NCBI GenBank assembly: GCA_022664555.1
Contig: GCA_022664555.1_4839.2
Source of the DNA: Escherichia coli
GTDB taxonomy: Bacteria; Pseudomonadota; Gammaproteobacteria; Enterobacterales; Enterobacteriaceae
DNA: 20,556 nucleotides
Reading direction: 5' to 3' (one strand)
Part shown: piece by piece, positions 1 through 17,703 of the stretch
Position numbering within the stretch: the stretch's first letter is position 1
Layout: every line of letters begins with the position of its first letter
Program-made: the position numbers and the translations under genes
The notes under the pieces: generated by a model
Databases searched by the model: none
The model's input: only the letters and a program-made list of their open reading frames with translations
Told to the model about the DNA's origin: nothing

Positions 1-1
1 C

Positions 2-154
2 ACCCATACCCGCGAACAGGGATTCATCGACAACCAGGGCAACTTCCTCACTCGTGAAGAGGCATGCATCGTAGCCCGTGAAGCTGGACAGATCAATCAG
101 GTGCGCCTGAAGACAACCCCGTTCCGCGAACTCTTTTCCGAAGACCTCTATTGA
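2..154 (+). CDS. 3' end of a gene truncated by the window edge (C-terminal ~50 aa), function unknown
   Basis: Frame 2 is open from the window edge to TGA at 152-154 (...GFIDNQGNFLTREEACIVAREAGQINQVRLK...). Not in the ORF track because it has no start in the window. Confidence 0.35.
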   Translation, partial: THTREQGFIDNQGNFLTREEACIVAREAGQINQVRLKTTPFRELFSEDLY

Positions 155-160
155 AGAAAA

Positions 161-194
161 AGGCGGTATTATACCGCCTCGACCTCTTGTTTGG
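161..194 (+). terminator. Possible intrinsic terminator after the truncated upstream gene
   Basis: Stem aggcggta/taccgcct (161-168 / 172-179) followed by a weak T-rich stretch (ctcttgtttgg). Confidence 0.3.
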
Positions 195-203
195 TAACAT
201 CAA

Positions 204-446
204 ATGAACCCAGAATTTGAAAATCTGTTCGAGCGATGCTTCGAACCAGGTTCTGTGTCCGGTTACATGGACCGCCTTTGCACTGCCATTGTAATACGCC
301 TTGCTGCCAAGGGTATCGTTGTCAACACCATTATCCGCAATGGGAACAACTTTATCATGCAGATGACTGATTATCACCACCGCACAGGCATCATCCAGGT
401 GTCATGTGTTGACAACAGCATTATTGAATGGAGACAGTACGCATGA
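204..446 (+). CDS. Hypothetical protein (80 aa)
   Basis: ATG at 204; stop TGA overlaps the next ATG (ATGA at 443-446), suggesting translational coupling. No clear SD upstream. Confidence 0.4.
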   Translation: MNPEFENLFERCFEPGSVSGYMDRLCTAIVIRLAAKGIVVNTIIRNGNNFIMQMTDYHHRTGIIQVSCVDNSIIEWRQYA

Positions 447-1042
447 CCACATATGTAATCAATGGTGGCGATCTACTGAAAGCCGCCTGTAGCTTCAATC
501 TGATCGACATCTTTGCCCACGGTGCCAACTGTTGGTCTACCATGGGCGCGGGTATTGCCCTGCACATCGGCAACAACTTCCCAGCGCTGCGCGAAGTCGA
601 TGCGAACGACCCTCGTGGTCCAGAGCAACGCCTGGGTGGTATGTCCTATGCATTTGACCACAGCAAGGGCGTTTGGGGCGCGAACCTCTACACTCAGTTT
701 TATCCAGGCCCTAACGCTCGCATGCCGTCTGTCATCAGTTCTGTTCAGACCCTGTTTGAGCAGGTGCATGAAATTGTGGAAGCAACTAAAGACGAAACTG
801 TCTATGTCGGCCTGCCTGCTATCGGCTGTGGTATTGGTGGTCTGAACCTCTACAGTGTAGTGCGCCATATCAATCGAATCTCTGAAAGCGTGTATGAAGA
901 GACCCGCCGTCGTGTCGTCCCAGTCTTCTATATCAGGGAAGGAGACGGATTCGATGATGATCTGATGGAACTTTCTCATCTGGACACAGAAGGTATCATG
1001 ATTGTCGAAGATGAGCAAGAAATCATCGACGAGGAGGGGTGA
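443..1042 (+). CDS. Macro-domain (ADP-ribose binding/processing) family protein
   Basis: ATG at 443 with GGAGA 7 nt upstream. Motifs IDIFAHGANCWSTMGAGIALHI and VYVGLPAIGCGIGGL resemble the two glycine-rich macro-domain signatures. Acidic C-terminal tail. Confidence 0.6.
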   Translation: MTTYVINGGDLLKAACSFNLIDIFAHGANCWSTMGAGIALHIGNNFPALREVDANDPRGPEQRLGGMSYAFDHSKGVWGANLYTQFYPGPNARMPSVISSVQTLFEQVHEIVEATKDETVYVGLPAIGCGIGGLNLYSVVRHINRISESVYEETRRRVVPVFYIREGDGFDDDLMELSHLDTEGIMIVEDEQEIIDEEG

Positions 1043-1045
1043 ATA

Positions 1046-1297
1046 ATGATATGCGCGTTTGATCAAGAATTTTATAAAAAGGTCAATATTCTAAAACTTG
1101 TCATGTCTGGAACTAGTTCGAAAGAAGTATCAGAAATTTATTGTATTTCACAGGCCAGGGTGAGCCAGATTTTGAGGGAAACTATAGGGTTACTTTGCCC
1201 AGAGATAGAAATTAAGCGCGTCAACAAAAAGTTCATTGATGAAAATTATTATACAGTAAAAGCCAAAATAAAGTGTTGGGAGAATAAGCATGTATAA
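1046..1297 (+). CDS. Small HTH DNA-binding protein (sigma-70 region-4 / NUMOD1-like helix-turn-helix)
   Basis: ATG at 1046 preceded by GAGGAGG. HTH-like segment SSKEVSEIYCISQARVSQILRE. The ORF lies in a visibly AT-rich island compared with its flanks. Confidence 0.55.
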   Translation: MICAFDQEFYKKVNILKLVMSGTSSKEVSEIYCISQARVSQILRETIGLLCPEIEIKRVNKKFIDENYYTVKAKIKCWENKHV

Positions 1298-1922
1298 ATC
1301 AAATTTTTTGGCTGTGGCTGACAGTGAAACCTTGGGGCGCTGGGATGATGCAGTCATGCTGTCTTGGGCGCACACCATCGCCGATCTGACCAAGCGTTAT
1401 ACACTTCAGCAGCTGGTTGAGGAGCGCACGACGTTCATTAAGCTGAATGTCAAAGAGCAGCTCGAACTTGGTCGCGTGAAGGACCAGGGGACGGTAGAAT
1501 GGTGGTTGGGGGCGGGTAAACGTAACCCGTGTGATGCGGCTCGCGCAGTCAGTCTGTACCCCAAGGAAGATGACATCTCTATCTTCCAATTGGCCGATGA
1601 AATCCGCAAGGGTTGCCATCGTCTTGGGGTAGACCCGCGCTCGGTTGACTGGTGTGATCGCAACCTGTTTGATCTGCGCAAGGCTCAGCACATCATTGAG
1701 GTGACATGTAAGCAGGACTCCAACGAGCCTTGGGACTACCACCACACCTTCGACATCGTGAGCTGGCTGAAGGGTGTTGGACAGCAGGATCGGTATGCTG
1801 GTATCAAGGCGTGGGAACTGGAAGGTATGGTCTATCATGACCCTCGTTATGACGCTGCGCTTGACTGGCTGCGTATTCAGAAGACCATGGAAGATCTGAT
1901 GGGGCTGGAGGTTGTGGGATGA
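1290..1922 (+). CDS. dexA: DEDDh-family 3'-5' exonuclease (T4 DexA-like)
   Basis: ATG at 1290 with GGGAGA upstream. Exo I motif AVADSETLG, Exo II-like NLFDL, Exo III motif HDPRYDAALDW (H-x4-D). Length and motif order match phage exonuclease A. Confidence 0.75.
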   Translation: MYKSNFLAVADSETLGRWDDAVMLSWAHTIADLTKRYTLQQLVEERTTFIKLNVKEQLELGRVKDQGTVEWWLGAGKRNPCDAARAVSLYPKEDDISIFQLADEIRKGCHRLGVDPRSVDWCDRNLFDLRKAQHIIEVTCKQDSNEPWDYHHTFDIVSWLKGVGQQDRYAGIKAWELEGMVYHDPRYDAALDWLRIQKTMEDLMGLEVVG

Positions 1923-2221
1923 TTGTATTCACTGTCATCGGTGTGATCGTAACAGCTGGGGTGTTCACAGCCATATTGGGCTACCTGTACTTCATGTTCC
2001 TTCATCCGTTATTTCAGGCGTTCAGTCTCACGAATTGGTACTTGGCCTGCCTAAAGGCCGACGGCGGCGTGAACACAGCCTCTCTTCCTTACTGGCGGCT
2101 GGTAGCGCATTACTACTCGGTCGGTGGATGGCCTGGGGAAAGGACATGGAACTCTATCGGTGAGTGGTATGGAATAGGTCGATGGCGTATATTCCCTGAT
2201 GAAGACGATCAAGCCCCGTGA
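1919..2221 (+). CDS. Small membrane protein (N-terminal transmembrane segment)
   Basis: ATGA overlap with the dexA stop. Hydrophobic N-terminus IVFTVIGVIVTAGVFTAILGYLYFMF. Terminator immediately downstream. Confidence 0.5.
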   Translation: MIVFTVIGVIVTAGVFTAILGYLYFMFLHPLFQAFSLTNWYLACLKADGGVNTASLPYWRLVAHYYSVGGWPGERTWNSIGEWYGIGRWRIFPDEDDQAP

Positions 2222-2234
2222 GGGGCTTTTCTAT
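2211..2234 (+). terminator. Rho-independent terminator
   Basis: agcccc-gtga-ggggct stem-loop (2212-2227) followed by TTTTCT; overlaps the stop codon of the preceding ORF. Confidence 0.6.
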
Positions 2235-2285
2235 ATCCGGGGTAGAGTATCATTGGTTCACCAATGAATCCTCGGGAGAGGTGAT

Positions 2286-2627
2286 ATGAAACGTTCGGTT
2301 GTCGTAAATGACATCACGAGATTGATAAACCTTGTCAAAGATGTGTTTCCACAACAGGTGGATGTCGAGTACGTGGGGAAGAACGGGAAGTGTTACCAGG
2401 TCGCTCTGTTGTTGAAGCACGTGTATCCCCAAGCAGAGATCCATTACAGTCAGACCGAAGGTCATGTGTATACTCTGATTGATGGGCATTACTACGACAT
2501 CGACGGCATCCACTTCAGTGTCCCACCGGACACGTGTTTGCTCGAACACAACAGAGGCCATAAACCCCATCGCTGGCATAAAGGATTTGTGAACGTACCA
2601 ATTTTAGAATGGTTGAGGAGACCATAA
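2286..2627 (+). CDS. Hypothetical protein (113 aa)
   Basis: ATG at 2286 with GGAGAGG 5-6 nt upstream; stop TAA overlaps the next start (TAATG). Confidence 0.55.
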
Positions 2628-3187
2628 TGGCAGGAATTGTGAAGTACCTGGGCGACACCCACCTCGGGCACAAGAAGATCTTCAAGCCCCGTGGGTTCGA
2701 CACGCAGGAAGCCCACGACGCTGTGGTCATCGACAGTATCTTTCAGGGGCTGAAGTCCCGAGACGTCCTTGAACTTGCAGGCGACATCTGCTTCATCGGG
2801 GCTGAGGGGTTCATTCGCCTGATGCGCGAGGGTGCCAAGCGGAATATTGATGAGTTCAAACGCCGCCCGGTTCCCGATGACTGGCGACCGAACTTTATCA
2901 TCAGGGTGGCGCAAGGCAACCATGACAATTTCAAGATGTTGATGCAGCTGTATCAAGAGGGATGGATTAGCTCCTTTGGTGCGATGTATGAGCGTGATAC
3001 TCCGGTTGGTCGTGTGCTGACCACTCACGTTCCTTATCAATTAGACCGCTGGGCGTATAATATCCATGGTCATCTTCACAGTGAAATGCGTGAAGAACGT
3101 GAATACCTGAACTGTAGTTGGGAACAATTCAAGCGCCCTGTAACCCTGTCTGAGTTGTTATACACCAATCTGGGGATTGAAATATGA
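2627..3187 (+). CDS. Calcineurin-like metallophosphoesterase
   Basis: ATG at 2627 with GAGGAG 6 nt upstream. Metallophosphatase motifs GDTHLG (GDxHG), GNHD (GNH[DE]) and HGHLH. Confidence 0.7.
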
Positions 3188-3501
3188 AAATTTATTTTCC
3201 TGGCCAAAAAGTGCCTTCTGAAGTGCAGAAGGTCACAATCACAGGCTACCGGAAAGGGGATCCATATCTGCGCTTCTCCTCTCCATGTATCGTGAAGCAA
3301 ACTAAAACGGGTTATTATATCAGGCCGATTGTGTTGATGGGCTGTGTAATGACGTTCAGAGCTTCCTGTGAACACGTTCTTATACAAGGAAGCCCGAACA
3401 TCGAAGGTGGAGAAACCCACACGAACTGCAAGCCGATTATCCCGACATGGTTGATTATTGGTGTGCTTTCCGTTTTAGCTCTGAAAGGAATATTGTCATG
3501 A
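3184..3501 (+). CDS. Hypothetical protein (105 aa) with hydrophobic C-terminus
   Basis: ATGA overlap with the preceding stop. C-terminal TM-like segment [18 protein letters not shown]. Confidence 0.45.
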
Positions 3502-3827
3502 AAAAGCCGCGTATTACAGGACACCAACTCTTGGTTCTCTACGGGATAGAGAACTTTGAGAAAGGTCATTACCGTTATGTTGAATGGTACTTGCATCCCA
3601 TATCCTGTACCAATGAGAAGTGCTACACGGTGTGTACGTTCAAGTTATTCACGATTTCTTGTGGTTTCACCTCCGTCAAAGGCAACCCCCGCACTGGGGC
3701 TTCCCTGCTCGCCAAGGGGTTGATCGAACCAGCTGGCTCAATGGTTCATGACGGTTCTTACGTGAACTGGCCGAACGCTGAGGTGACGTTCTATCGCCTG
3801 ACCGAACTCGGTAAATCTTATCTCTGA
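3498..3827 (+). CDS. Hypothetical protein (109 aa), possibly winged-helix-like
   Basis: ATG at 3498 (AAAGGA upstream), ATGA overlap with the preceding stop. The ORF-track start at 3447 looks like an upstream extension. Confidence 0.5.
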   Translation: MKKPRITGHQLLVLYGIENFEKGHYRYVEWYLHPISCTNEKCYTVCTFKLFTISCGFTSVKGNPRTGASLLAKGLIEPAGSMVHDGSYVNWPNAEVTFYRLTELGKSYL

Positions 3828-3851
3828 ATAAAGATTCAGCGGTTATTGAAG

Positions 3852-3883
3852 AAGGGGGAGTATATACTTCCCCTTAGTTTATT
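3852..3883 (+). terminator. Rho-independent terminator
   Basis: 10-bp stem aagggggagt/acttcccctt (one G-U pair) with loop atat, followed by agTTTATT. Preceded by the 10-mer gttattgaag. Confidence 0.6.
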
Positions 3884-3897
3884 AAGAGGAACCGGAA

Positions 3898-4212
3898 ATG
3901 ACCCCATTAAAAGAAATGTATGAGCGCCTGGCTGAACTACAGGCGAAGGAAAAGCGCTTCTCAGAAGAAGAGTCTGAAATCTCCGAGCTGAACACTTTGA
4001 TCGCCACTCGCGAGAAGTACCTGCAGCGCTACATTAATCACCCACCGCGCATGGTAGACCGCGTCAGCACTATCATGGACCTGGATGAAGTTACTCCTGG
4101 CAAAGAAATCATTGTCAGGGAAGTCCATCAGATGGTCGCCATGGGTCAGATCTTTGGTCGTGCAGACCAAGACGACATGATGTTCCTCCTTGAAAAGAAA
4201 CTGGTGATGTGA
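3898..4212 (+). CDS. Hypothetical protein (104 aa)
   Basis: ATG at 3898 with AAGAGGA 7 nt upstream; stop TGA overlaps the cd start. Confidence 0.55.
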   Translation: MTPLKEMYERLAELQAKEKRFSEEESEISELNTLIATREKYLQRYINHPPRMVDRVSTIMDLDEVTPGKEIIVREVHQMVAMGQIFGRADQDDMMFLLEKKLVM

Positions 4213-4718
4213 TGGCTATCAAACCCCGTATGTTGTTTGCGCATATGCGCTCGGCTCATGCATACGCTCTGTCCAGCTATGCCCAGCGCCTGAAGGTCGG
4301 CTGTGTTATCGTTGACCCGCGTGTTGACCAGCCCCTGTCTATCGGTTGGAACGGGACTGCTCCTGGCGCTCCTAATGTCTGTGAGAAGGAAGTAGACGGT
4401 CAACTGGTATATGTGGGTGTTATCCACGCCTAGGATAATGCTCTGATCAAACTCCCCCAGCACACCGAAGACTGTTGTGGCCTGGTGATGTTTGTCACTC
4501 ATAGTCCATGCCCAGAGTGCACCCGTCGTATTATCGACAGTGGCAAGATCGCTAAAGTGTTCTATGACCGACAATATAGTATCACAGACTGTATTATTGA
4601 AATGCTGGCTGCTGGAATTGAAGTATATCGCATGGTCGATCAGGTTGTTGTAGTCCAGCATTCTGTGAAGAACGGCGAACTGGTATCCACCCCTGTTTTA
4701 GTGAACCCTGACAAATAA
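4212..4718 (+). pseudogene. cd: dCMP deaminase (cd) interrupted by an in-frame amber codon (TAG at 4431-4433) at the catalytic-Glu position
   Basis: Single 168-codon frame. N-part VGCVIVD...SIGWNGTAPG...VIHA, then TAG, then DNALIKL...THSPCPEC. This matches the deaminase zinc motifs H-A-E and PCxxC, with the stop where E is expected. ORF-track fragments are 4209..4433 and 4485..4718, in the same frame. Confidence 0.75.
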
Positions 4719-4728
4719 GGAATTTATC

Positions 4729-5136
4729 ATGCGTTATGTAGATCGTATGCTCGGCAAAGACGAGCACGTTATTGCCTTCACCCGCCCGACTTGGTGGAGC
4801 GGTTTTTGGATTTATGTTCTGGTTATTTTAACGTTTATTCCAACATTTGGATTCAGCTTGTTATTTCTGATACCAACAATTTTAAATGTATTGACAACTG
4901 AATTCGCTGTGACTAACAAGCGCGTCATCGTCAAGCGCGGGTTCATCCGTCGTGATGCTGATGAGTTGCGCATTGGTAAGGTGGAGACAGTGAAGGTTGA
5001 TCAGTCCATCACAGGCCGCATCTTGGGTTTCTCAACAATCAGCGTGATCGGTACGGGCGGCACCCGCCTGCTGGCCAAGGGTTGTGCTGGTGGTAATGCG
5101 TTCCGTCAGAAGATCTACGATCACCTAGAAGACTGA
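4729..5136 (+). CDS. Membrane protein with bacterial PH-like (DUF304-type) domain
   Basis: ATG at 4729 with AAGGA upstream. Two hydrophobic segments followed by a TNKRVIVKRGFIRRDADELRIGKVETVKVDQSITGRILGF pattern. Confidence 0.55.
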   Translation: MRYVDRMLGKDEHVIAFTRPTWWSGFWIYVLVILTFIPTFGFSLLFLIPTILNVLTTEFAVTNKRVIVKRGFIRRDADELRIGKVETVKVDQSITGRILGFSTISVIGTGGTRLLAKGCAGGNAFRQKIYDHLED

Positions 5137-5138
5137 TC

Positions 5139-5351
5139 ATGATCATTTCAGGTTACACCATCGATCTTTATTGTGAATGCTCAGATTGCAAGGCATGCAG
5201 TTGGGCTTGGGAAGAGCATCACCCCAAGTGCGGGTTCAAACAATACACTGGTGAGACTTGGGGTGAGTGTGTCAAACAGGCGCGAGCAGACGGCTGGCAA
5301 ATTGGGCGCGACAGGCATACCTGTTACGCCCCTGGCCACAAGAGAAGTTAA
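5139..5351 (+). CDS. Small cysteine-rich protein (possible zinc-binding)
   Basis: 70 aa with CECSDCKAC ... HHPKC ... C ... C spacing; follows the previous stop by 2 nt. Confidence 0.45.
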   Translation: MIISGYTIDLYCECSDCKACSWAWEEHHPKCGFKQYTGETWGECVKQARADGWQIGRDRHTCYAPGHKRS

Positions 5352-5962
5352 GGTAAGAGCAGTCCATCATCCCGCTCCGTTGGGGCGGGTTTAATCTCCT
5401 TCCGCATCTGTTCTTTCAAGAATCTGACACGCTCGGCATGTCGGCGATCTTGCATCTCCATATCCCGTTTCTTTTTCGACTTCAATTCGAACTGTTTACG
5501 AACATCCGGATCTTCACCTGGAACAAGATGCTCTTCGGTCCAGATAATGAACTTCCAGTTCTTCTTGGCACACAGTTCGCGGGTGGCCTCCCACTTGGCA
5601 GAATTGACCAACCAGGTTCGCATCGCATTGTTGAACGTCGACTCCTTCATGTTCGGAGTCTTCTTCGGCTGCTTGATCTGGTCTTTGGGCTTGATCTCAA
5701 TGAGGGTGACCTGTAGTTCCTCTTGCCCTTCACGGCGCGTCCAGACCTTGAGGTCCATGAAGTAACGATGGGTGCGCCCGTCTACTGGGGAAATGTAAGG
5801 GATTACGGTCTCCTCGTTTTCCCAGAAAATGATCGCAGGATTAGTATCACAAAACTTGAAAGCCACAAGTTCCAAAGAAGATCGAAATACGATTTTGTTT
5901 GGGTTGCCTTTGTACTTTTTAGGATTGACAGGAACATATTTCCCTTGAAGATATTGCGCCAT
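5348..5962 (-). CDS. Hypothetical protein with PD-(D/E)xK-like nuclease motif and lysine-rich C-terminus
   Basis: ATG at 5962 with GGAGGA upstream, overlapping the seg stop (TAATG). Motif ...PYISPVDGRTHRYFMDLKVW... (D ... D-L-K). Confidence 0.5.
   Translation of the reverse strand: MAQYLQGKYVPVNPKKYKGNPNKIVFRSSLELVAFKFCDTNPAIIFWENEETVIPYISPVDGRTHRYFMDLKVWTRREGQEELQVTLIEIKPKDQIKQPKKTPNMKESTFNNAMRTWLVNSAKWEATRELCAKKNWKFIIWTEEHLVPGEDPDVRKQFELKSKKKRDMEMQDRRHAERVRFLKEQMRKEIKPAPTERDDGLLLP
5371..5395. terminator. Possible bidirectional terminator hairpin between convergent genes
   Basis: cccgctcc-gtt-ggggcggg stem-loop followed by TTTAAT. It lies in the last codons of the minus-strand ORF, so the assignment is tentative. 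Confidence 0.3.
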
Positions 5963-6699
5963 TATGCTTTCCTCCAACCTTTATGCTGTAAATTGCGACC
6001 CTTGTTTACGTGGCCCATGGAGCCTTCGCTCAAACCGATTTCTTTACAAAATTTTGCCAGGTTGACAATTGTCACCAACTGCCCTTCTGGGTTGATGAAT
6101 TTGAATTCTCGGGAATTGGCCTCGGATATTCTCTCGCGCCCTTCTTTCGTCACAGCCCCTTTGCAATTAGAGTAATCTACCAACCCCAATTCAACAAGTC
6201 GCTTATTTGAATTTCTTATTTTGTCCCTGGTTTGCTGGTCTACAACACAACCAAATCTTGGGTTATTTTCTCCCGAACGATCTTTTCCAAACCAAAAATT
6301 TCTAGAACCGTTTAGCGCTCTTGAACGATAAATTCTTTCCAGTTCTTCTTTTGGTTTAGAGAGTAATGTGTTCAGAGCTTTGGTAGACGCCTGCTTTCTA
6401 GCCTCTGGGTCTGAATTGATGTGGTCGAAGGATCCACATCCACCCAGCGTCAAATTGTATGTATCTTCCCTTTCTATAAAATCTTTGGTTACTATTCTGG
6501 ATTCTTCTAGGTACATTTGTTCCTGAGTTTCACACTCCAATAAAATATCCTTTCTGAAGTTTTCAACTCCATGTTTCTTGATTGCTCTGGTTATCATAAC
6601 ACCAGAACCCATATAGCCATCATCCGGTTCGCCTTTGTGGGCACCAACATATATCTTACCGTTTAGAAGATTGGTTATCTGGTAGACGAAGTATCTCAT
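5962..6699 (-). CDS. GIY-YIG homing endonuclease (Seg-like)
   Basis: N-terminal YFVYQITNLLNGKIYVGA ... GYMGSG ... E ... N matches the GIY-YIG catalytic module. C-terminal half has NUMOD-like DNA-binding repeats. GC is visibly lower than in the flanks. Confidence 0.8.
   Translation of the reverse strand: MRYFVYQITNLLNGKIYVGAHKGEPDDGYMGSGVMITRAIKKHGVENFRKDILLECETQEQMYLEESRIVTKDFIEREDTYNLTLGGCGSFDHINSDPEARKQASTKALNTLLSKPKEELERIYRSRALNGSRNFWFGKDRSGENNPRFGCVVDQQTRDKIRNSNKRLVELGLVDYSNCKGAVTKEGRERISEANSREFKFINPEGQLVTIVNLAKFCKEIGLSEGSMGHVNKGRNLQHKGWRKA
5962..6699 (-). mobile_element. Free-standing homing endonuclease gene inserted between nuclease and baseplate genes
   Basis: Same ORF as the Seg-like CDS; intergenic placement and compositional difference from neighbours. 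Confidence 0.55.
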
Positions 6700-6749
6700 A
6701 ATCTAGTCCTAAATAGTCATAACACTCTATCTATTTAAGGGCTGAGACC

Positions 6750-7718
6750 ATGGCCGACTTCAAGAAGACAATCGATAAGATCAAGGTTCTGAACACCAAG
6801 GGATTGTCCCAGGCTCAGAAGCAATTGTCTTATCCCCTGGACGTCACTGGGGGTAAGACCTTAGGACACTATGTCCTATTCAACATCAACCGCATCTCCG
6901 GTTCATCTTATGGCAATACGGCTACTCAGACTATCGAGAACCCAATACAGAACCCTCTGGGGAATACTCCTGTGGTCTATGGGTCCAAGTCTGGTTCCAT
7001 CACCAAATATGCATGGGCGCGTCACGTTCGTTCAAACGAGTCCATCGTCTTGTGTATGCCAGAGTCCATTACAACCAACTATGGTGTTGGCTGGAACGGT
7101 AGTGAGCTGGGGCTGGCTGGAATGGGTGCACAGTTCCTTTCCCGCGCCGCCCAAGACATGACTCAGTTTAAACTGGGTGATGCACTCAACGTCGGGAAGG
7201 AGATGGGGCGATTCGCTGCCACCAAGGCTATCCAATCTGCATCGGAGGCTATCCCGTTCCTGCCGAGCATTAACGCCCATGACACCCTTGAGTTGTTCAC
7301 AGGCACCATGACCAACCCATATGTGGAGATGATCTTCCAGGGTGTTCGCAACCGTGAGATTCCATTTACATTCAAATTCACGCCGCGATCTCAGAAGGAA
7401 GCCAAGATGGTCCGTGAGATCATCCGCATGTTCAAGATGCATATGTACCCAGAGTACAAGTACAACAAGAATTCCAGCGCGTTTTACTTGCATCCTTCAA
7501 CATTCGACATTACGTTCATGGTCAATGGGGAGCGTAACCAGTGGCTACACCGCATCTCCACTTGTGTACTTTCCAACATGTTCGTCAACGAGACGCCGGA
7601 CAGTTCATACGCGGTTCACAAAGATGATGGTATCGTGTCCACGCAGGTTGACATGACCTTCATCGAACTGGAGCCTCTGCATAAAGGGCGCTTTGAAACC
7701 GAAGGCGATAGCTTCTAA
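6750..7718 (+). CDS. Baseplate/tail-tube junction protein with tail-tube fold (gp19-family; gp54/gp48-like by size)
   Basis: 322 aa. C-terminal REIPFTFKFTPRSQKEAKMVREIIRMFKMHMYPE resembles the conserved tube-protein motif. First gene of a + strand structural operon. Confidence 0.6.
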   Translation: MADFKKTIDKIKVLNTKGLSQAQKQLSYPLDVTGGKTLGHYVLFNINRISGSSYGNTATQTIENPIQNPLGNTPVVYGSKSGSITKYAWARHVRSNESIVLCMPESITTNYGVGWNGSELGLAGMGAQFLSRAAQDMTQFKLGDALNVGKEMGRFAATKAIQSASEAIPFLPSINAHDTLELFTGTMTNPYVEMIFQGVRNREIPFTFKFTPRSQKEAKMVREIIRMFKMHMYPEYKYNKNSSAFYLHPSTFDITFMVNGERNQWLHRISTCVLSNMFVNETPDSSYAVHKDDGIVSTQVDMTFIELEPLHKGRFETEGDSF

Positions 7719-7729
7719 GAGAGGATGCC

Positions 7730-8284
7730 ATGAAATATTTTGAGAAGTTTCCACTTGTTTGGCATCAATTGCAAGATGTCAAAGAGAATCATCAGTTGTT
7801 GTTACAGAACTTAACGCGCCGGGTGATGATCTTACAGAAAATTAAGGACATCGAAGGGCTTCTCCTGCCGTATACGATCCAAGAGGGGGAAACCCCAAGG
7901 TCTTTCGCAGAACGCGTTTACGGATCCTTCGAGTTGTTTTGGATACCTTGTCTGATAAACGGCATCATGGACATCAATAAGGACTGGCCAAAACCGGAAC
8001 GTCGTATTGTTGAAGAACTGACTGCAGACTATGGCATCGATGGTATGTGGGATACAGCCTATTATGTAGACCAGTTCAACAATGTGACCGACGCCCGTGC
8101 TATCAAATTTGCATATAACCTAGACCTGGATGAGCCGTCCATAATTGCTAACTATGGTCTGACGGCAGTTTCATATCATGATGATGCAATCAGTAAGAAT
8201 GAAGCCAAACGGAACATCCGAGTACTCGACCCAGATTATGTGTCTTCGTTTGTCAATCAGCTGGAGCAGGAGTTGGCGAAATGA
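7730..8284 (+). CDS. Small baseplate hub-associated protein (gp26/gp28/gp51-like by position)
   Basis: 184 aa; ATG at 7730 with AAGAGAGGA upstream; ATGA-coupled to the next gene. Assignment is by synteny only. Confidence 0.45.
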   Translation: MKYFEKFPLVWHQLQDVKENHQLLLQNLTRRVMILQKIKDIEGLLLPYTIQEGETPRSFAERVYGSFELFWIPCLINGIMDINKDWPKPERRIVEELTADYGIDGMWDTAYYVDQFNNVTDARAIKFAYNLDLDEPSIIANYGLTAVSYHDDAISKNEAKRNIRVLDPDYVSSFVNQLEQELAK

Positions 8285-9669
8285 TCGAAAACAGAGAGAC
8301 CCAAGACGGTATTGTAACACCGTCAACAACATTTGACCTGAAGTATATGGCGATCCTCCCTCATACACCCCAGGGTGGAACACCAACGCCATATGATCTG
8401 ACGGCGTTGTTTGAGGAGTTCAACGTCTTCCAGGATCTGGGTCTTGAAGGGAAGTCATCTCCATCACTTACAGCCAATGTCTTGATAAAAGAAGTGTGTG
8501 ACATTCTTGACACAATGCCTATCTTGGGTGGTGAAGAAGTTGTGGTGTCATTCAAGAGTCCGGCGGCCTCGGAATACCCCACTCTCTCCCTGCGCGTAGC
8601 GCGTGTTGGGCGCGTAGCTGATGAGTCCAACAGCTCGTCCAAGAAAGCATTCTGGTTGCACATGGTGACCACCGATGCCTATAAGGACAGCATGATCCGA
8701 TGCTCCCTCGGTCTTGACGGTTCGTATTCTGACATGGCGAAGGCAATCTTCAATCAGTTGGAGTCGCGCACCAAGTTCGAAGACATCGACCCGTCGTATG
8801 GAATTCAAGAGCGGTTCGCCACCCCGCTCTGGCCTGTGCTGCGATCTATTGATTATATGGCGAGCCGTTCTTATGACGAATTGTTCATGCCATTCGTGTT
8901 CTATGAAGACTTCAATGGCTATCACTTCAAGAGCCTGACGACGTTGTTCAACCAGGGTAGCCAGTCATTGACAGCAGAAGAGAAGCAGGAACTAGCTCAG
9001 CAGAACAAGTTGTTCCGTGATCCTCAGGACGCGCCGCTCATGCAGGATAACAACTTCAACTCTGAGCGCTTTATGCGCACGATCATCAAGGCAGAGAAGA
9101 AGCTGGCGCGTGACCAGTTCATGGCAAACTACCGCGATGTCCTGGCGGTGAACGAGCGCGTCTACGACTTTGAGACCAAGACAGTCACCCCAACACAGCG
9201 CATCTATACTGAGTGGTTTGCAGAGACGGCTCACCTTGATCCGTTCCCGATGTTCTCAGATGAATTCAATCGTCAGAACGTCCGTTACATTGAAGCCCAG
9301 CCGGATGGAGCGGAGCAGATTGATTATGCTCGTCGTGTTATCAACTTCAGTCTTGCCAGCACTGTGATGCGCGTGTTGCTCGTTGGTGATAACCGCCTGA
9401 ACGTCGGTCAGGTGTTCTACGTCGAAGACCAGTCCAACCGTCCTAAGAAGAACGAAAACCTGGCAGAGTTAAGTAAGCTATCGACAGGCCACTATATCGT
9501 GACCAAAGTGCGTCACAAGATTTCCCGCCTAACCAAAGATTATCAGTGCATCGCTGAGATTGCCAAGGACAGTTTGCTGGAGCAGGTGCTTCCACCTCAG
9601 ACCAATCAGACAACTGCTTCCACCACTACTCCTCAGGCGATTGAGAAAGGCCAAGCACAGAAGGTTTAA
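8281..9669 (+). CDS. Baseplate hub subunit, gp27-like (tentative)
   Basis: 462 aa. Segments PLWPVLRSIDYMASRSYDELFMPFVFYEDFNGYHFKSLTTLFNQ and GDNRLNVGQVFYVEDQSN resemble remembered gp27 hub motifs. Immediately upstream of the tape-measure gene. Confidence 0.55.
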   Translation: MIENRETQDGIVTPSTTFDLKYMAILPHTPQGGTPTPYDLTALFEEFNVFQDLGLEGKSSPSLTANVLIKEVCDILDTMPILGGEEVVVSFKSPAASEYPTLSLRVARVGRVADESNSSSKKAFWLHMVTTDAYKDSMIRCSLGLDGSYSDMAKAIFNQLESRTKFEDIDPSYGIQERFATPLWPVLRSIDYMASRSYDELFMPFVFYEDFNGYHFKSLTTLFNQGSQSLTAEEKQELAQQNKLFRDPQDAPLMQDNNFNSERFMRTIIKAEKKLARDQFMANYRDVLAVNERVYDFETKTVTPTQRIYTEWFAETAHLDPFPMFSDEFNRQNVRYIEAQPDGAEQIDYARRVINFSLASTVMRVLLVGDNRLNVGQVFYVEDQSNRPKKNENLAELSKLSTGHYIVTKVRHKISRLTKDYQCIAEIAKDSLLEQVLPPQTNQTTASTTTPQAIEKGQAQKV

Positions 9670-9680
9670 CGAGGTGACCC

Positions 9681-11627
9681 ATGGCACAGGAAGCAACGAA
9701 CAATGATGTTGTCAAAGTTCTAGACAAGATCAAGGCGGAGATGATGCAGCGCAAACAACTCCGCGCTCAGAATGAAACCAACAAACAGCTTGACCGGATG
9801 AACAAGAATCTGGCCAAGCTGGAATCTGCCACTAAACAGGGCACCAAGGCCGAGTCCAAGCCATTTGAAATCCGTATCCCGACAGTCAATGAGATCGTCA
9901 TGGGATTCGCTCGCATGTCTCCGATCTTCACCCGCGACTTCAGCGTATGGATGAAGGATACTGTCGATGTGGGTAACGAAGGTAATCGGGAACTGGAGAA
10001 TATCGCAGGCAAGATTGACCGCCTCGGTGAGATCACCCGCATGCCAACAGATGACACGTCCCTGGAGTATCTTAACCTGATCTCAGACCAGCTGAAGTCT
10101 GCCAATGATGACACCCTCAAGCGCATGGACGAGCAGAGTGTGTCTCTGGTCCGCGTGGGATCATTCTTGAACATGATCGACGGAGTGATGATCGAGGTTC
10201 GTGACAATGTTGCTGAACTGAAAAAGAACTCCGATGACACCCTTACTCGCTTGTCTAGCATTGAAAACAAGATTGGACGCACGGGCGGTCATATCGTTGG
10301 AGTGTTGACACGCATCTTTGATGAAGACCAGAAGTGGCGTGAGAAGGACGAGATGCGCCGTGGGGAAACAGACAAAGAAACGGGTGGTCATCCTCAGGCG
10401 GGTTCTGTTATACCCAAAGACGATGACCAGAAAGACGATTCCTCCGGTATCGGGGCTGCTGTGGCGGCCATGCTTGGCCTGAATGCACTGAAGGGCTTCT
10501 TGCTCAAGCCGTTCAAGATCATCGGTGGTGTTGTCGGGACTTTCCTCGGCATGTTCTCCAAGCTGGGAGAAGGTATCACCAAACTTCTGGGTCCATTTGG
10601 GAAGGTGTTCAAGTTCCTGAAAGTCGGCCCACTGGCTCTCCTGTCTATGATCTGGGACTTCGGTAAAGGCTTCATTGATGCGAAGGAGATCCTAGGTAAA
10701 GGTGCTGTCACGATAGTTGACCGAGTACGGGCGGGGATATCAGAACTGGTTGGTGGATTTGGTGATCTATTTGACTGGGTGTCCAAGATCTTTGGCTTTG
10801 ATACCGAGGCGGGTGAAACCCTGCGCAAATACACCCTCATGATCACAGAGGCTCCCGCTCGTTGGCTGAATGGTATTATCGACTGGATTAGCAACGACTT
10901 GTTTGCAGGGATCGGGAGAGACACGTCTCTTACGGATATCCCTGGCAAGTTAGCAGACAACCTACAGTCCGAGTTGATAAAGCTGGTAGACTGGATCACA
11001 GGGGGTATCAGTAGTGTGATCGACGAGGGCATGGGTGTGGCCAACAAGGTCATTGACGATATCAAGAAGGGATTTGCCGAAAATGTGAAGAAACCTTTCT
11101 TCAACATGCTGAACACAATCACCAATGCGATGTTCGATATCGTTGACAAGTTCGTCAGCATCATCCCTGACGCTCTGGGTGGACAGGCTGCGAAGCAGAA
11201 GATGGATGAGGCTCGCCAGTCTATGCTGATTGACACTGATGAGAATCCATCTCCTAATGTGACAGAGACCCAGCAGCCACAGACGCCAGCACAACCGAAC
11301 ATCGATCCACAAACGCTGACTCCAATACCTTCTGGTGCGTCTTCGGATGACAAGAATATGACTAATGACCGCACCTCTCAGCTGAAAGCTGCGTATGGTT
11401 CTATCGGGGGTGGTACTCTGGGCGGGGCCATGCCATCACAAGGGAGGGCGCTGTCTAATATTGAGCAAGTACAAGGCGGCTATTCACCGCCTCCGGCCAG
11501 CGTCGTGATGCCAGTACAGCAGAATGTGGATGCTTCTAAGAGGATCAACACGACCAATAACTTCAACAGCTCATATCTTGAGCCTGAGAACAAAACAGAT
11601 AATTCCCGCATCCTGTGGGAATGGTAA
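9681..11627 (+). CDS. Tail tape measure / baseplate hub protein, gp29-like
   Basis: 648 aa. N-terminal coiled-coil-like region, a long Gly-rich hydrophobic segment (GIGAAVAAMLGLNALKGFLLKPFKIIGGVVGTFLGMF...) and a Ser/Pro-rich C-terminus. ATG at 9681 with GAGGTGA upstream. Confidence 0.6.
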   Translation: MAQEATNNDVVKVLDKIKAEMMQRKQLRAQNETNKQLDRMNKNLAKLESATKQGTKAESKPFEIRIPTVNEIVMGFARMSPIFTRDFSVWMKDTVDVGNEGNRELENIAGKIDRLGEITRMPTDDTSLEYLNLISDQLKSANDDTLKRMDEQSVSLVRVGSFLNMIDGVMIEVRDNVAELKKNSDDTLTRLSSIENKIGRTGGHIVGVLTRIFDEDQKWREKDEMRRGETDKETGGHPQAGSVIPKDDDQKDDSSGIGAAVAAMLGLNALKGFLLKPFKIIGGVVGTFLGMFSKLGEGITKLLGPFGKVFKFLKVGPLALLSMIWDFGKGFIDAKEILGKGAVTIVDRVRAGISELVGGFGDLFDWVSKIFGFDTEAGETLRKYTLMITEAPARWLNGIIDWISNDLFAGIGRDTSLTDIPGKLADNLQSELIKLVDWITGGISSVIDEGMGVANKVIDDIKKGFAENVKKPFFNMLNTITNAMFDIVDKFVSIIPDALGGQAAKQKMDEARQSMLIDTDENPSPNVTETQQPQTPAQPNIDPQTLTPIPSGASSDDKNMTNDRTSQLKAAYGSIGGGTLGGAMPSQGRALSNIEQVQGGYSPPPASVVMPVQQNVDASKRINTTNNFNSSYLEPENKTDNSRILWEW

Positions 11628-12758: not shown

Positions 12759-12762
12759 CAGA

Positions 12763-12984: not shown

Positions 12985-12988
12985 GTAC

Positions 12989-14419: not shown

Positions 14420-14424
14420 GTGGT

Positions 14425-14465
14425 GTCTCCAGGGTTATATGTGCTGCTATTATAACCCTGGGGAC
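14425..14465 (-). promoter_or_regulatory. Stable hairpin in the ligase 5' leader that sequesters the Shine-Dalgarno sequence
   Basis: Perfect 11-bp inverted repeat ccagggttata / tataaccctgg with 11-nt loop, extendable to about 15 bp. The minus-strand GGAG SD lies within the 3' arm, 6 nt from the ATG. Confidence 0.5.
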
Positions 14466-14532
14466 TTCAATAGATTATTGGTGGGTGCGGGATTTTGCCT
14501 GGCCGATAATGAGGTCAGTGTGTAGTCCTCGG

Positions 14533-14874: not shown

Positions 14875-15127
14875 GGACTGTTCCTTCTTTAAGTTCCCAA
14901 GAATTAAATGGGTGAATAGTTTATTGAATTATTTGTTGTGAAACCCAGAGCCTTGTGGACTTCTTCACGATTTTAATTTCGGCCTGAGCCTCTGTGCGAT
15001 TAATCTAGCGCTTGTGATGTCGGGAGAGGGCTTTGTAAACAAGCCTTGGCGTCAATGGCATCGATTAGACAACGGATCTCAGCGCATCAGAGGCTTGCCC
15101 AACAGCCAGTTGAAATACTTGCGCATG

Positions 15128-16760: not shown

Positions 16761-16900
16761 CCTTTCGGCAGTGCGCTAGAGCTTCTTCAGTCTCTAAACT
16801 ACAAAAAATTCATTGTATAACGGAATATTGAAAGTTTTTAAGTTCATTTCCAGACTCATGATGTAGTTGTAACTCTTCAATACAGATTAAATATTAGGCG

Positions 16901-16928
16901 ATTATTTCTTGAAAGTAAAGTTATTGAA
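16901..16928 (-). promoter_or_regulatory. Candidate sigma70-like promoter for the 368-aa gene operon
   Basis: Minus strand: TTCAAT (16923-16928), 16-nt spacer, AATAAT (16901-16906); immediately downstream of the terminator hairpin. Confidence 0.3.
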
Positions 16929-16933
16929 GTTAA

Positions 16934-16956
16934 AAGCCCAGTACTTGACTGGGCTT
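16934..16956 (-). terminator. Rho-independent terminator after the 104-aa gene
   Basis: 9-bp stem aagcccagt / actgggctt with loop acttg. On the minus strand it is followed by TTTTAACTTC. Lies 18 nt downstream of the stop codon at 16974-16976. Confidence 0.55.
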
Positions 16957-16973
16957 CTTGGTGTTCGATTGAC

Positions 16974-17288
16974 TTATTCGCCACTGACATTCGGGTCTCG
17001 ATCGGGCTTGGCGTTCGGGAATAGAGACTCGTATAGGTCTTGATATTTCTCGCTCGTTTCGATCGTCTTATGGTAAGTTCCATTGGCGCGGTCGGATACA
17101 ACCTTGCGCAGGTCGCTGGCCTTGATGCCCGTCTCTTTCGCCAGCTCGGCCAGAGTCTCAGTAATGAAAGTCTGTTCCGACTTGATGCGGACCTGGGCGG
17201 CACGACAGTTTTCAATTGCACCTATCAGCTTGCGACGGGATTCAGGATCAGATGGTAGTACATAAAAGCCGATTTGTTCTACAGACAT
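16974..17288 (-). CDS. Hypothetical protein (104 aa)
   Basis: ATG at 17288 with AAGAGGAA upstream. Confidence 0.55.
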   Translation of the reverse strand: MSVEQIGFYVLPSDPESRRKLIGAIENCRAAQVRIKSEQTFITETLAELAKETGIKASDLRKVVSDRANGTYHKTIETSEKYQDLYESLFPNAKPDRDPNVSGE

Positions 17289-17303
17289 TTGGTGTTCCTC
17301 TTG

Positions 17304-17671: not shown

Positions 17672-17699
17672 ATTATACCCTATGACCCGCTTTATTGAA
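17672..17699 (-). promoter_or_regulatory. Candidate sigma70-like promoter downstream of gene 41
   Basis: Minus strand: TTCAAT (17694-17699), 16-nt spacer, TATAAT (17672-17677); about 30 nt upstream of the AGGAG/ATG of the 111-aa gene. Confidence 0.35.
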
Positions 17700-17703
17700 T
17701 TAC

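What the first reader, a model, noticed from the sequence alone, without database searches (positions are those of the whole stretch)
3842..3883. Conserved 10-mer GTTATTGAAG immediately 5' of two terminator hairpins
The same 10-mer precedes both the terminator hairpin at 3852-3883 (+ strand operon) and the hairpin at 16934-16956 (copy at 16920-16929, for a minus-strand operon). Two unrelated GC-rich stems share an identical AT-rich flank. This suggests a repeated terminator/promoter cassette or a protein-binding site rather than chance.
Basis: seen in the sequence. Interest (0 to 1): 0.4.

Follow-up and report, generated by a model that had tools for sequence, protein, structure and literature searches.

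The report
Phage promoter box beside terminator hairpins
The repeated 10-mer is real: it carries an 8-base box (TTCAATAA) that marks the early/middle promoters of this Ag3/ViI-like phage, and these promoters are fused to terminator hairpins in compact stop-and-restart cassettes of a kind already known from T4-like phages.

Summary
GTTATTGAAG occurs exactly at 3842-3851 and 16920-16929, each next to a stable GC-rich hairpin (2 copies against 0.08 expected).

The window comes from an Ackermannviridae phage, 96.8% identical to Enterobacter phage fGh-Ecl02. In that full genome the 10-mer occurs 4 times, all intergenic. Its core TTCAATAA/TTATTGAA is the most over-represented intergenic 8-mer: 24 copies in 11.7 kb intergenic against 7 in 141 kb coding. 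Twenty of the 24 point the same way as the downstream gene.

The box lies 12 nt upstream of a -10-like hexamer far more often than any other spacing. That is the geometry of T4 MotA-box middle promoters, but I found no MotA or AsiA. In 13 of 20 such promoters the -10 hexamer sits in a hairpin loop.

- **Site 2:** conserved terminator, then box, then TTTACT-17-TAATAT promoter.
- **Site 1:** inverted box, 12 nt, then TATACT inside the hairpin. This arrangement is conserved across subfamilies.

Both hairpins were already listed as terminators in phage Ag3. Composite promoter/terminator cassettes (PeSL/PmSL) are known in T4-like phages. The box itself appears undescribed. All function is inferred from sequence, with no transcript data. 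Verdict: a new variant of a known kind, of moderate interest.

The parts
3842..3851 (+). Site 1 copy of the 10-mer GTTATTGAAG. It contains the inverted box TTATTGAA at 3843-3850 (TTCAATAA on the - strand).
   Evidence: TTATTGAAG is invariant in 11 loci from different genera, while the flanking intergenic bases vary.
3852..3875 (+). Site 1 hairpin: 5' arm 3852-3860, loop 3861-3866, 3' arm 3867-3875. It is followed by a weak T-rich tail, TTAGTTTATT (3874-3883). Probable terminator or attenuator for the upstream + strand genes.
   Evidence: -17.1 kcal/mol, z -3.0. Listed as rho-independent terminator Torf031 in phage Ag3. The 3' arm is invariant, and a G-to-A change in the 5' arm keeps pairing.
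3863..3868 (+). -10-like hexamer TATACT, lying in the loop and 3' arm of the site 1 hairpin. It is exactly 12 nt downstream of the inverted box and 29 nt upstream of the ATG at 3898. Predicted transcription start about 3875-3877; Shine-Dalgarno AAGAGGAA at 3884-3891.
   Evidence: Sequence. TATACT is invariant and the 11-12 nt spacing is kept across genera. The 29-nt distance to the ATG falls within the 28-41 nt range I counted for 11 of the class promoters listed.
16920..16929 (-). Site 2 copy of the 10-mer. It reads CTTCAATAAC in the direction of transcription, with the box TTCAATAA at 16928..16921. It lies between the terminator and the -35 hexamer.
   Evidence: The box is kept at this promoter across genera, but its position relative to the -35 hexamer shifts.
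16934..16956 (-). Site 2 hairpin followed by TTTTAACTT. Intrinsic terminator of the upstream - strand gene (104 aa, 17288..16974).
   Evidence: -16.1 kcal/mol, z -4.5. Listed as Torf057 in Ag3. Three of 10 pairs show compensatory changes across 8 sequences.
16891..16919 (-). Site 2 core promoter: -35-like TTTACT (16919..16914), 17-nt spacer, -10-like TAATAT (16896..16891). Predicted start about 16888-16883; ATG at 16859.
   Evidence: It matches the T4/PST PeSL promoter consensus TTTACW-N17-TAYWAT. TTTACT-17-TA..AT is conserved across genera.
148..180 (+). A further inverted-box cassette: cTATTGAA (148-155), 11 nt, TATTAT (167-172) in the loop of hairpin 160-180. It lies upstream of the gene starting at 204.
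   Evidence: Conserved in Ag3 and CBA120. The hairpin is Torf021 in Ag3.
14449..14473 (-). Inverted-box promoter of the DNA ligase gene: cTATTGAA (14473..14466), 11 nt, TATAAT (14454..14449), with a flanking inverted repeat CCAGGGTTAT..ATAACCCTGG. ATG at 14419.
   Evidence: Identical architecture in Ag3 and CBA120.
14903..14928 (-). Forward-box promoter: TTCAATAA (14928..14921), 12 nt, TTTAAT (14908..14903). The hexamer is TATAAT in fGh-Ecl02 and CBA120. ATG at 14874.
17672..17699 (-). Forward-box promoter: TTCAATAA (17699..17692), 14 nt, TATAAT (17677..17672) in the loop of a 13-bp hairpin. ATG at 17639.
   Evidence: (-14.2 kcal/mol, z -4.0).

Best explanation
The 10-mer is one instance of a lineage-specific promoter box, TTCAATAA (often CTTCAATAA[C/A]; reverse complement TTATTGAA[G]). 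This box marks the pre-late (early/middle) promoters of Ackermannviridae phages. In these phages such promoters are fused to intrinsic-terminator hairpins, forming compact stop-and-restart cassettes of the PeSL/PmSL type known from T4-like phages.

Site 2, read on the - strand:
- The hairpin at 16956..16934 plus its T-run ends the transcript of the upstream 104-aa gene.
- The box follows 5 nt later and abuts a T4-early-like promoter, TTTACT-17 nt-TAATAT, which restarts transcription for the next gene.

Site 1, read on the + strand:
- The box is inverted (TTATTGAA).
- It lies 12 nt upstream of TATACT, which sits in the loop and 3' arm of the hairpin.
- Transcripts coming from upstream can form the hairpin and be attenuated. 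Transcripts started about 7 nt after TATACT lack the 5' arm and so escape termination.

What is shown: the motif's enrichment, its orientation bias, its fixed spacing to the -10 hexamer, its nesting in hairpins, and its conservation across subfamilies.

What is inferred: that these sites are active promoters and terminators; and that the box, which takes the place of a -35 element at about -30, is read by a phage-induced factor analogous to MotA rather than by sigma-70 region 4.
For: Identity of the window:
- It is an Ag3-like Ackermannviridae phage, 96.8% identical to fGh-Ecl02.

Genome-wide counts in fGh-Ecl02:
- TTCAATAA/TTATTGAA is the top intergenic 8-mer: 24 intergenic against 7 coding copies, a 42-fold enrichment.
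- 20 of 24 intergenic copies are co-oriented with the downstream gene, p about 8e-4.
- The spacing from box to TATNNT peaks sharply at 12 nt, in 8 of 31 copies.
- Box (up to 1 mismatch)-N11-13-TANNNT gives 25 hits, 19 of them intergenic. Shuffled genomes give 6.1 genome-wide.
- In 13 of 20 such promoters the -10 hexamer lies in a hairpin loop, against 14% of control hexamers, p about 2e-7.
- For 11 of the promoters listed I counted 28-41 nt from the -10 hexamer to the ATG. Site 1 is 29 nt.

Conservation:
- In CBA120, a different subfamily, the box is again the top intergenic 8-mer and sits at the homologous promoters.
- At site 1, TTATTGAAG, TATACT and their spacing are invariant or near-invariant across genera.
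- At site 2, the hairpin shows compensatory changes, and TTTACT-17-(-10) is conserved.
- Two more inverted-box promoters in the window are conserved in Ag3 and CBA120.

Gene class:
- Structural genes carry a different motif, CTAAATA, and never the box.

Literature:
- The MotA box lies 12 +/- 1 bp from the -10 element (PMC2988021).
- PeSL stem-loops may lie upstream of the -35 box or overlap the -10 box. The T4/PST PeSL consensus is TTTACW-N17-TAYWAT, and PmSLs combine a Mot box with TATTAT.
Against: - There are no transcript 5' or 3' end data for any Ackermannviridae phage in the literature I could search. Promoter and terminator activity is therefore purely inferred.
- At site 1 the box is inverted, which an asymmetric monomeric reader like MotA would not tolerate.
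- The box position relative to the -35 hexamer is not fixed in the TTTACT-type promoters. It lies upstream in the window, overlapping in Kuttervirus, and in the spacer elsewhere. That pattern fits a separate regulator site better than a core promoter element.
- The site 1 T-tail is weak (TTAGTTTATT).
- The window's own promoter at 14903-14928 has TTTAAT, a weaker match to the -10 consensus than the TATAAT of its relatives.
- No reader protein is identified.
Confidence: 0.68

Rival explanations
1. The box is an operator for a phage-encoded DNA-binding regulator, for example one that shuts off or times the early promoters. On this view it is not part of the promoter proper, and orientation and exact position would then matter little. 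Candidate readers are the weakly DsbA-like 104-aa protein encoded immediately upstream of site 2, and the HU/IHF-family protein of these phages.
For: - The box occurs in both orientations.
- It shifts relative to the -35 hexamer between genera, and is duplicated in CBA120.
- Two promoters carry a TTATTGAA-N13-TTCAATAA inverted pair flanking the -35 hexamer.
- The phage encodes an HU-family protein: PF00216, E 6e-30.
- The gene next to site 2 belongs to phrog_639, 'transcriptional regulator', and has a weak Phage_DsbA match at E 0.07.
Against: - The sharp 12-nt spacing to the -10 hexamer, the strong co-orientation with genes (20 of 24), and the absence of any -35 element in that class all point to a positioned promoter element.
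- Nothing links either candidate protein to the box.
- This rival overlaps with the best explanation rather than excluding it.
Confidence: 0.25
2. The 10-mer is simply part of the terminators: an A/T-rich flank that extends the stem, or forms the U-tract, of uni- or bidirectional intrinsic terminators.
For: - At site 1 the predicted fold pairs UUAUUGAA with the downstream U-rich tail.
- At site 2 the box begins 5 nt after the stem, within the U-rich region.
- At window 160-180 the - strand reads hairpin followed by TTTTTCTTCAATAG.
Against: - Most intergenic boxes are not terminator flanks. They lie a fixed distance upstream of -10 hexamers and 50-100 nt upstream of start codons.
- The ligase-promoter copy has no T-tract in either orientation.
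- The hairpins at 2211 and 5371 in the window are terminator-like but lack the word.
Confidence: 0.08
3. The repeated word reflects spread of a mobile or recombinogenic regulatory cassette, that is PeSL-style modular shuffling. The copies would then be similar by descent or recombination rather than by selection on the box itself.
For: - PeSLs mediate indels in T4-like phages.
- Some indel breakpoints between the window and its relatives lie next to cassettes: window 2277-2286 just after hairpin 2211-2228, and 14516-14520 next to the ligase cassette.
- The stretch TGAATAAAGATTC is shared between site 1 and another box promoter.
Against: - Similarity between copies is confined to the 8-10 nt box and the -10 hexamer. 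The stems and spacers are unrelated.
- Each copy is conserved at its own locus across subfamilies. That pattern indicates selection on the box, not recent copying.
Confidence: 0.12
4. Chance: two unrelated intergenic regions happen to share a 10-mer.
For: The window holds 385 direct 10-mer pairs, so shared 10-mers as such are common.
Against: - 2 copies against 0.08 expected for this word.
- 4 of 4 genome copies are intergenic, p about 3e-5.
- The core is the top intergenic 8-mer in two subfamilies.
- Both sites are conserved across genera.
Confidence: 0.02

Closest known systems
PeSL (promoter-early stem-loop) cassettes of T4-like myoviruses (Arbiol et al. 2010, PMC2839356; Comeau et al. 2014, PMC4122927)
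   Same: - Both are intergenic composite elements that join a sigma-70-type early promoter to a stable stem-loop acting as terminator or attenuator.
- They recur many times per genome, mostly in front of small genes of unknown function.
- The stem-loop may lie upstream of the -35 box (as at site 2) or overlap the -10 box (as at site 1 and 13 of 20 box promoters).
- The T4/PST consensus TTTACW-N17-TAYWAT equals site 2's TTTACT-17-TAATAT.
   Different: - PeSLs were described only in T4-like phages (Tevenvirinae and relatives), not in Ackermannviridae.
- PeSLs have no TTCAATAA box.
- Many cassettes here lack any -35 hexamer.
- Promoter and terminator activity, and recombination mini-circles, were shown experimentally for PeSLs but not here.
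T4 middle promoters (MotA box plus -10; sigma appropriation by MotA/AsiA) and the PmSL variant in phages nt-1/KVP40
   Same: - A conserved box replaces the -35 element and lies 12 +/- 1 bp upstream of a good sigma-70 -10 hexamer.
- In PmSLs this arrangement is combined with a stem-loop and a TATTAT -10 hexamer.
- The downstream genes are pre-late ones: DNA metabolism and small unknown genes.
   Different: - The box sequence is TTCAATAA, not (a/t)(a/t)(a/t)TGCTTtA.
- No MotA or AsiA Pfam family was detected among the 119 proteins of 215 aa or fewer in the near-identical genome.
- The box also works, or at least is conserved, in inverted orientation at three promoters.
Rho-independent terminators annotated in Shigella phage Ag3 (Anany et al. 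2011, Table S2)
   Same: Both hairpins are already listed there: Torf031 (site 1) and Torf057 (site 2). The hairpin at window 160-180 is Torf021.
   Different: That paper lists nine sigma-70-like 'early promoters', three of which contain ttcaataa. It did not recognise the box, its spacing to the -10 hexamer, or the overlap of promoters with the hairpins.

Membership tests
PeSL-type composite promoter/terminator cassette | Intergenic position directly upstream of a gene's Shine-Dalgarno sequence and start codon | tested here: met
   At site 1 the cassette lies between the stop codon at 3827 and the ATG at 3898. At site 2 it lies between the stop codon at 16974 and the ATG at 16859.
PeSL-type composite promoter/terminator cassette | Sigma-70-like promoter with -35 hexamer, about 17 nt spacer and -10 hexamer (T4/PST type TTTACW-N17-TAYWAT) | tested here: inconclusive
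   Site 2 meets it: TTTACT-17-TAATAT, conserved across genera. Site 1 has a -10 hexamer (TATACT) but no -35 hexamer at 16-18 nt; the inverted box sits at 12 nt instead.
PeSL-type composite promoter/terminator cassette | [quoted passage not shown] | tested here: met
   Site 2 has its hairpin upstream of the -35 hexamer. Site 1 has its hairpin overlapping the -10 hexamer. Fold energies are -16 to -17 kcal/mol with z of -3 to -4.5. Genome-wide, 13 of 20 box promoters have the -10 hexamer in a loop.
PeSL-type composite promoter/terminator cassette | Many copies per genome, mostly next to small genes of unknown function | tested here: met
   There are 19 intergenic box-N11-13-(-10) sites plus several TTTACT-type sites in the 153-kb genome. 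Most precede 'hypothetical protein' genes.
PeSL-type composite promoter/terminator cassette | Association with indel breakpoints (modular shuffling, mini-circles) | tested here: inconclusive
   Two of the breakpoints between the window and its relatives lie within about 50 nt of cassettes; others do not. Mini-circles cannot be tested here.
PeSL-type composite promoter/terminator cassette | Demonstrated promoter and terminator activity | not testable with these tools
   This needs reporter fusions or mapping of transcript ends.
T4-type middle promoter (MotA/AsiA sigma appropriation) | A box replaces the -35 element, 12 +/- 1 bp upstream of a -10 TAnnnT hexamer | tested here: met
   The spacing histogram peaks at 12 nt. 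There are 19 intergenic sites with spacing 11-13 nt. Site 1 has exactly 12 nt.
T4-type middle promoter (MotA/AsiA sigma appropriation) | MotA box sequence (a/t)(a/t)(a/t)TGCTTtA | tested here: not met
   The box here is TTCAATAA or its inverse.
T4-type middle promoter (MotA/AsiA sigma appropriation) | Phage encodes MotA and AsiA | tested here: not met
   A Pfam scan of all 119 fGh-Ecl02 proteins of 215 aa or fewer, at E up to 0.01, returned no AsiA, MotA_activ or MotCF family. Caveats: the proteins were concatenated for the scan, and remote homologues could escape.
Intrinsic (rho-independent) terminator | GC-rich hairpin followed by a U-tract on the transcribed strand | tested here: met
   Site 2 has an 11-bp stem followed by UUUUAACUU. 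Site 1 has a 10-bp stem followed by an interrupted UUAGUUUAUU, which is weak.
Intrinsic (rho-independent) terminator | Structure conserved through compensatory changes | tested here: met
   At site 2, 3 of 10 pairs show changes on both sides across 8 sequences. At site 1 there is only a one-sided G-U to A-U change.
Intrinsic (rho-independent) terminator | Transcript 3' ends at the U-tract | not testable with these tools
   This needs Term-seq or 3'-RACE.

The most novel reading that the evidence does not exclude
Ackermannviridae phages run their pre-late transcription through a promoter class of their own. A TTCAATAA box centred near -29 replaces the -35 element and works in either orientation. 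The -10 hexamer is typically presented in the loop of a terminator hairpin. The box is read by a still unidentified phage factor unrelated to MotA/AsiA, so this would be an independent invention of sigma appropriation.
Probability: 0.25. Interest if true: 0.6.

Novelty: new variant of a known kind. Interest (0 to 1): 0.4.

Why it matters
Ackermannviridae (ViI, CBA120, Ag3 and LIMEstone-like phages) are widely used for biocontrol and for phage engineering, yet their transcription programme is essentially unstudied. A 2024 family review does not mention promoters or transcription at all.

- **A testable map.** A defined box with fixed geometry gives a concrete map of about 20-25 pre-late promoters per genome. 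It separates these from the CTAAATA late promoters and gives a direct handle for finding the factor that reads the box.
- **A wider pattern.** The stop-and-restart cassette architecture described for T4-like phages extends to a separate family. This matters for genome engineering, where genes are inserted at such junctions, and for understanding modular gene exchange.

Tried and rejected
- **IMG/VR scan.** It says nothing about taxonomic spread.
- **Literature.** Searches for 'TTCAATAA' with 'phage', Ackermannviridae with 'middle promoter', and Ackermannviridae with RNA-seq or TSS terms found nothing relevant. The EspM4VN paper used only a generic promoter predictor.
- **Rfam.** No family reaches its gathering score anywhere in the window.
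- **A - strand promoter at site 1.** TTCAATAA-N12-TATTCA was rejected: the hexamer lacks the final T, there is no - strand gene downstream, and the spacing changes to 10 nt in Kuttervirus.
- **TTGAAG as a sigma-70 -35 hexamer at the inverted-box sites.** Rejected, because the spacer to the -10 hexamer would be only 10-11 nt.
- **Resemblances recalled from memory.** These were the sigma-28 promoter, the IHF consensus and the H-NS nucleation motif TCGATAAATT. The first two do not fit the spacing or the flanking bases. The H-NS resemblance (TCAATAAA) was not tested.
- **The 104-aa protein next to site 2.** No informative PDB sequence match, and only a sub-threshold Phage_DsbA hit.
- **The 672-aa protein some records call 'putative RNA polymerase'.** It has no Pfam match.
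- **A misdiagnosis on my part.** I first thought fetched loci were missing from the script machine. In fact each file holds several records, so a few region fetches were redundant.

Full report
**1. The observation.**

GTTATTGAAG occurs exactly twice in the window, at 3842-3851 and 16920-16929, both on the + strand. Dinucleotide shuffles expect 0.08 copies, and none of 100 shuffles reached 2.

Each copy adjoins a stable hairpin.
- Site 1: AAGGGGGAG/TATATA/CTTCCCCTT at 3852-3875. The + strand RNA folds at -17.1 kcal/mol, z -3.0.
- Site 2: AAGCCCAGT...ACTGGGCTT at 16934-16956. The transcribed - strand folds at -16.1 kcal/mol, z -4.5.

A shared 10-mer is not remarkable in itself, because the window contains 385 direct 10-mer pairs. 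The question is therefore whether this word is special. It is.

**2. What the window is.**

The window is 96.8% identical over 95% of its length to Enterobacter phage fGh-Ecl02, and 91-92% identical to Shigella phage Ag3. It therefore comes from an Ag3-like member of the Ackermannviridae.
- Genes at 1-5351 run on the + strand. They are small early-type genes, including DexA, a phosphatase and dCMP deaminase.
- Genes at 6750-11627 are baseplate and tail genes.
- Genes at 11628-20556 run on the - strand. They include the helicase loader, DNA ligase, gp41 and UvsX.
- No Rfam family matches anywhere in the window.

**3. The word genome-wide.**

I assembled the complete 153-kb fGh-Ecl02 genome with its 196 annotated features.
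- The exact 10-mer occurs 4 times (about 0.3 expected; Poisson p about 2e-4). All four copies fall in the 7.7% of the genome that is intergenic, p about 3e-5.
- Among all 8-mers, TTCAATAA/TTATTGAA is the most over-represented in intergenic DNA: 24 copies in 11.7 kb against 7 in 141 kb of coding sequence, a 42-fold enrichment.
- Twenty of the 24 intergenic copies read TTCAATAA in the direction of the downstream gene, p about 8e-4.
- In the window itself the 8-mer occurs 7 times against 0.68 expected. Four copies are intergenic: 3843, 14921, 16921 and 17692.

**4. The box belongs to promoters.**

The distance from TTCAATAA to the next TATNNT hexamer peaks sharply at 12 nt, in 8 of 31 copies. A minor class has 6 nt: TTTACTTCTTCAATAA-N6-TATACT.

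Allowing one mismatch in the box and 11-13 nt of spacing gives 25 sites, 19 of them intergenic. Shuffled genomes give 6.1 over the whole genome. For 11 of the intergenic sites listed, I counted 28-41 nt from the hexamer to the start codon of a co-oriented gene.

These sites have no -35 hexamer at the sigma-70 distance. A conserved box 12 +/- 1 bp from a good -10 element is exactly the geometry of T4 middle promoters, where the MotA box replaces the -35 element (PMC2988021). The box sequence is different, however. A Pfam scan of all 119 small proteins of fGh-Ecl02 also found no AsiA or MotA family.

Structural genes carry a different upstream motif, CTAAATA, which resembles the T4 late promoter TATAAATA. 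They never carry the box. The box therefore marks pre-late genes.

**5. Why hairpins are next to it.**

In 13 of 20 box promoters the -10 hexamer lies in the loop of a hairpin with a stem of at least 5 bp. Only 14% of control intergenic TANNNT hexamers do so, p about 2e-7. Several of these hairpins are followed by T-runs and are listed as terminators in the Ag3 paper.

This is the architecture described for PeSLs, the promoter-early stem-loops of T4-like phages. PeSLs are composite cassettes of a strong sigma-70-like promoter and a stem-loop terminator. [quoted passage not shown] A 'PmSL' variant combines a Mot box with a TATTAT hexamer. Those papers do not cover ViI-like phages.

**6. Site 2.**

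Read on the transcribed - strand, the order is:
- stop codon of a 104-aa gene (16974);
- hairpin 16956..16934, followed by TTTT AA;
- CTTCAATAAC (the 10-mer);
- TTTACT (16919..16914);
- 17 nt;
- TAATAT (16896..16891);
- about 31 nt;
- ATG (16859).

This is a PeSL of the class with the stem-loop upstream of the -35 box, and it matches the T4/PST promoter consensus.

Across genera the hairpin keeps its structure through compensatory changes in 3 of 10 pairs, and TTTACT-17-(-10) is conserved. The box moves, however. It lies upstream of the -35 hexamer in Ag3-like phages. In Kuttervirus it overlaps the hexamer (TTTACTTCAATAA). In CBA120 it is duplicated in tandem. In one more distant contig it takes the 12-nt spacing to the -10 hexamer.

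**7. Site 1.**

Read on the + strand, the order is:
- stop codon (3825-3827);
- 15 nt;
- TTATTGAA (3843-3850), which is the box inverted;
- 12 nt;
- TATACT (3863-3868), in the loop and 3' arm of the hairpin;
- 29 nt, including AAGAGGAA;
- ATG (3898).

In 11 loci, whose downstream protein is 49-96% identical to the window's, TTATTGAAG, TATACTTCCCCTT and TTTATT are invariant, and the spacing stays at 11-12 nt. The rest of the spacer varies, and a G-to-A change in the 5' arm preserves pairing.

The inverted arrangement is not unique to site 1. Two more promoters in the window have cTATTGAA-N11-TATTAT/TATAAT with the hexamer in a hairpin:
- 148-180 on the + strand;
- the ligase promoter, 14473..14449 on the - strand.

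All three are conserved in Ag3 and CBA120. TATTGAAG-N9-12-TANNNT occurs 6 times in the genome, against 0.25 in shuffles.

A start about 7 nt after TATACT would give a transcript that lacks the 5' arm of the hairpin. Such a cassette can stop incoming transcripts while launching new ones. This last step is inference.

**8. What reads the box.**

This is unknown. The fixed spacing and the orientation bias argue for a positioned promoter element read by a phage-induced factor. The inverted copies, and the floating position in the TTTACT-type promoters, argue for a separate regulator site. The two roles may coexist.

The candidates are no more than that:
- the 104-aa protein encoded just upstream of site 2 (phrog_639 'transcriptional regulator'; sub-threshold Phage_DsbA match at E 0.07, also precomputed for many homologues);
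- an HU/IHF-family protein (PF00216, E 6e-30).

**9. What was already known.**

Both hairpins are listed as rho-independent terminators of Ag3: Torf031 and Torf057. Three of that paper's nine 'early promoters' contain ttcaataa, but the motif was not noticed. A 2024 review of the family contains none of the words promoter, transcription, sigma or regulatory. I found no transcriptome study of the family in the library I could search. The cassette type (PeSL/PmSL) is known from T4-like phages. The TTCAATAA box, its 12-nt geometry without MotA/AsiA, and its inverted use appear to be undescribed.

**10. Verdict.**

The element is a promoter/terminator arrangement with a probable protein-recognition box. 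It is not a terminator flank, and the two sites are two different architectures rather than copies of one cassette.
- It is a new variant of a known kind, of moderate interest.
- Every functional statement rests on sequence statistics and conservation. Mapping transcript ends would settle it.

Noticed in passing
window 16770-16859 (- strand); compared with L006 and L001: The gene downstream of site 2 is a 397-aa protein in fGh-Ecl02 and Ag3. In the window it carries two in-frame TAG codons (both GAG to TAG) and a cluster of about 14 substitutions, mostly G to T, in its first 90 nt. The surrounding sequence is otherwise about 99% identical. Possible explanations are amber mutations, a pseudogene or truncated start, or a local sequencing problem. 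The remaining 368-codon ORF (15654-16760) is intact.
   Followed up: partly
window 6709-6715 (+), and 12 intergenic sites in fGh-Ecl02: CTAAATA, often extended to CTAAATACCCC(ATA), lies 28-85 nt upstream of structural genes: baseplate, tail spikes, neck, sheath and scaffold. It is probably the late promoter read by gp55/gp33, a variant of the T4 late motif TATAAATA. The tail-spike copies are followed by an inverted repeat of the same word (GGGGTATT).
   Followed up: partly
fGh-Ecl02 genome; in the window e.g. 16859 and 17639 (- strand): 34 of 193 start codons (18%) are immediately preceded by ATC, typically (A/T)(T/C)ATCATG. That is about ten times the expected frequency and holds for both early and late genes. 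It may be a preferred translation-initiation context or an operator. The phage encodes a RegA-type translational repressor (PF01818).
   Followed up: partly
L002:15966-15994 and L004:1251-1279 (fGh-Ecl02): Two promoters carry an inverted pair, TTATTGAA-N13-TTCAATAA, flanking the -35 hexamer TTTACT. Four boxes are embedded in the near-palindrome TTTATTCAATAAA. This hints at dimeric binding.
   Followed up: no
L046:30502-30532 (CBA120, - strand): At the homologue of site 2, CBA120-like phages have a tandem duplication: TTTACTTCAATAAAAC TTTACTTCAATAAAAC.
   Followed up: no
window 1045-1289 and 5958-6694: Two segments are absent from both fGh-Ecl02 and Ag3. One is a small ORF (1046-1297, 83 aa) between the Tk.4-like and DexA genes. 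The other is a 245-aa ORF on the - strand (5962-6699) between the head-completion gene and the gp48 gene. That is a typical position for a homing endonuclease, but its nature was not checked.
   Followed up: no
window 16974-17288 (- strand); L003:35096-35374; fGh-Ecl02 protein 17146-17610: Possible transcription-related proteins were seen. One is a weakly DsbA-like 104-aa protein next to site 2. Another is an HU/IHF-family protein that some records annotate as 'transcription factor'. A third is an ART-PolyVal ADP-ribosyltransferase domain (PF18760, E 1e-8) in a small protein, reminiscent of the T4 Alt/Mod enzymes that modify RNA polymerase.
   Followed up: partly
L003:22840-22880 (fGh-Ecl02 72840-72880): One box promoter (TTCAATAA-N12-TATATT) is followed, inside its predicted 5' leader, by a strong terminator-like hairpin, GCGCCCTGACAAACGGGGCGC (Torf160 in Ag3). 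It lies upstream of a 672-aa protein of unknown function. This could be an attenuator.
   Followed up: no
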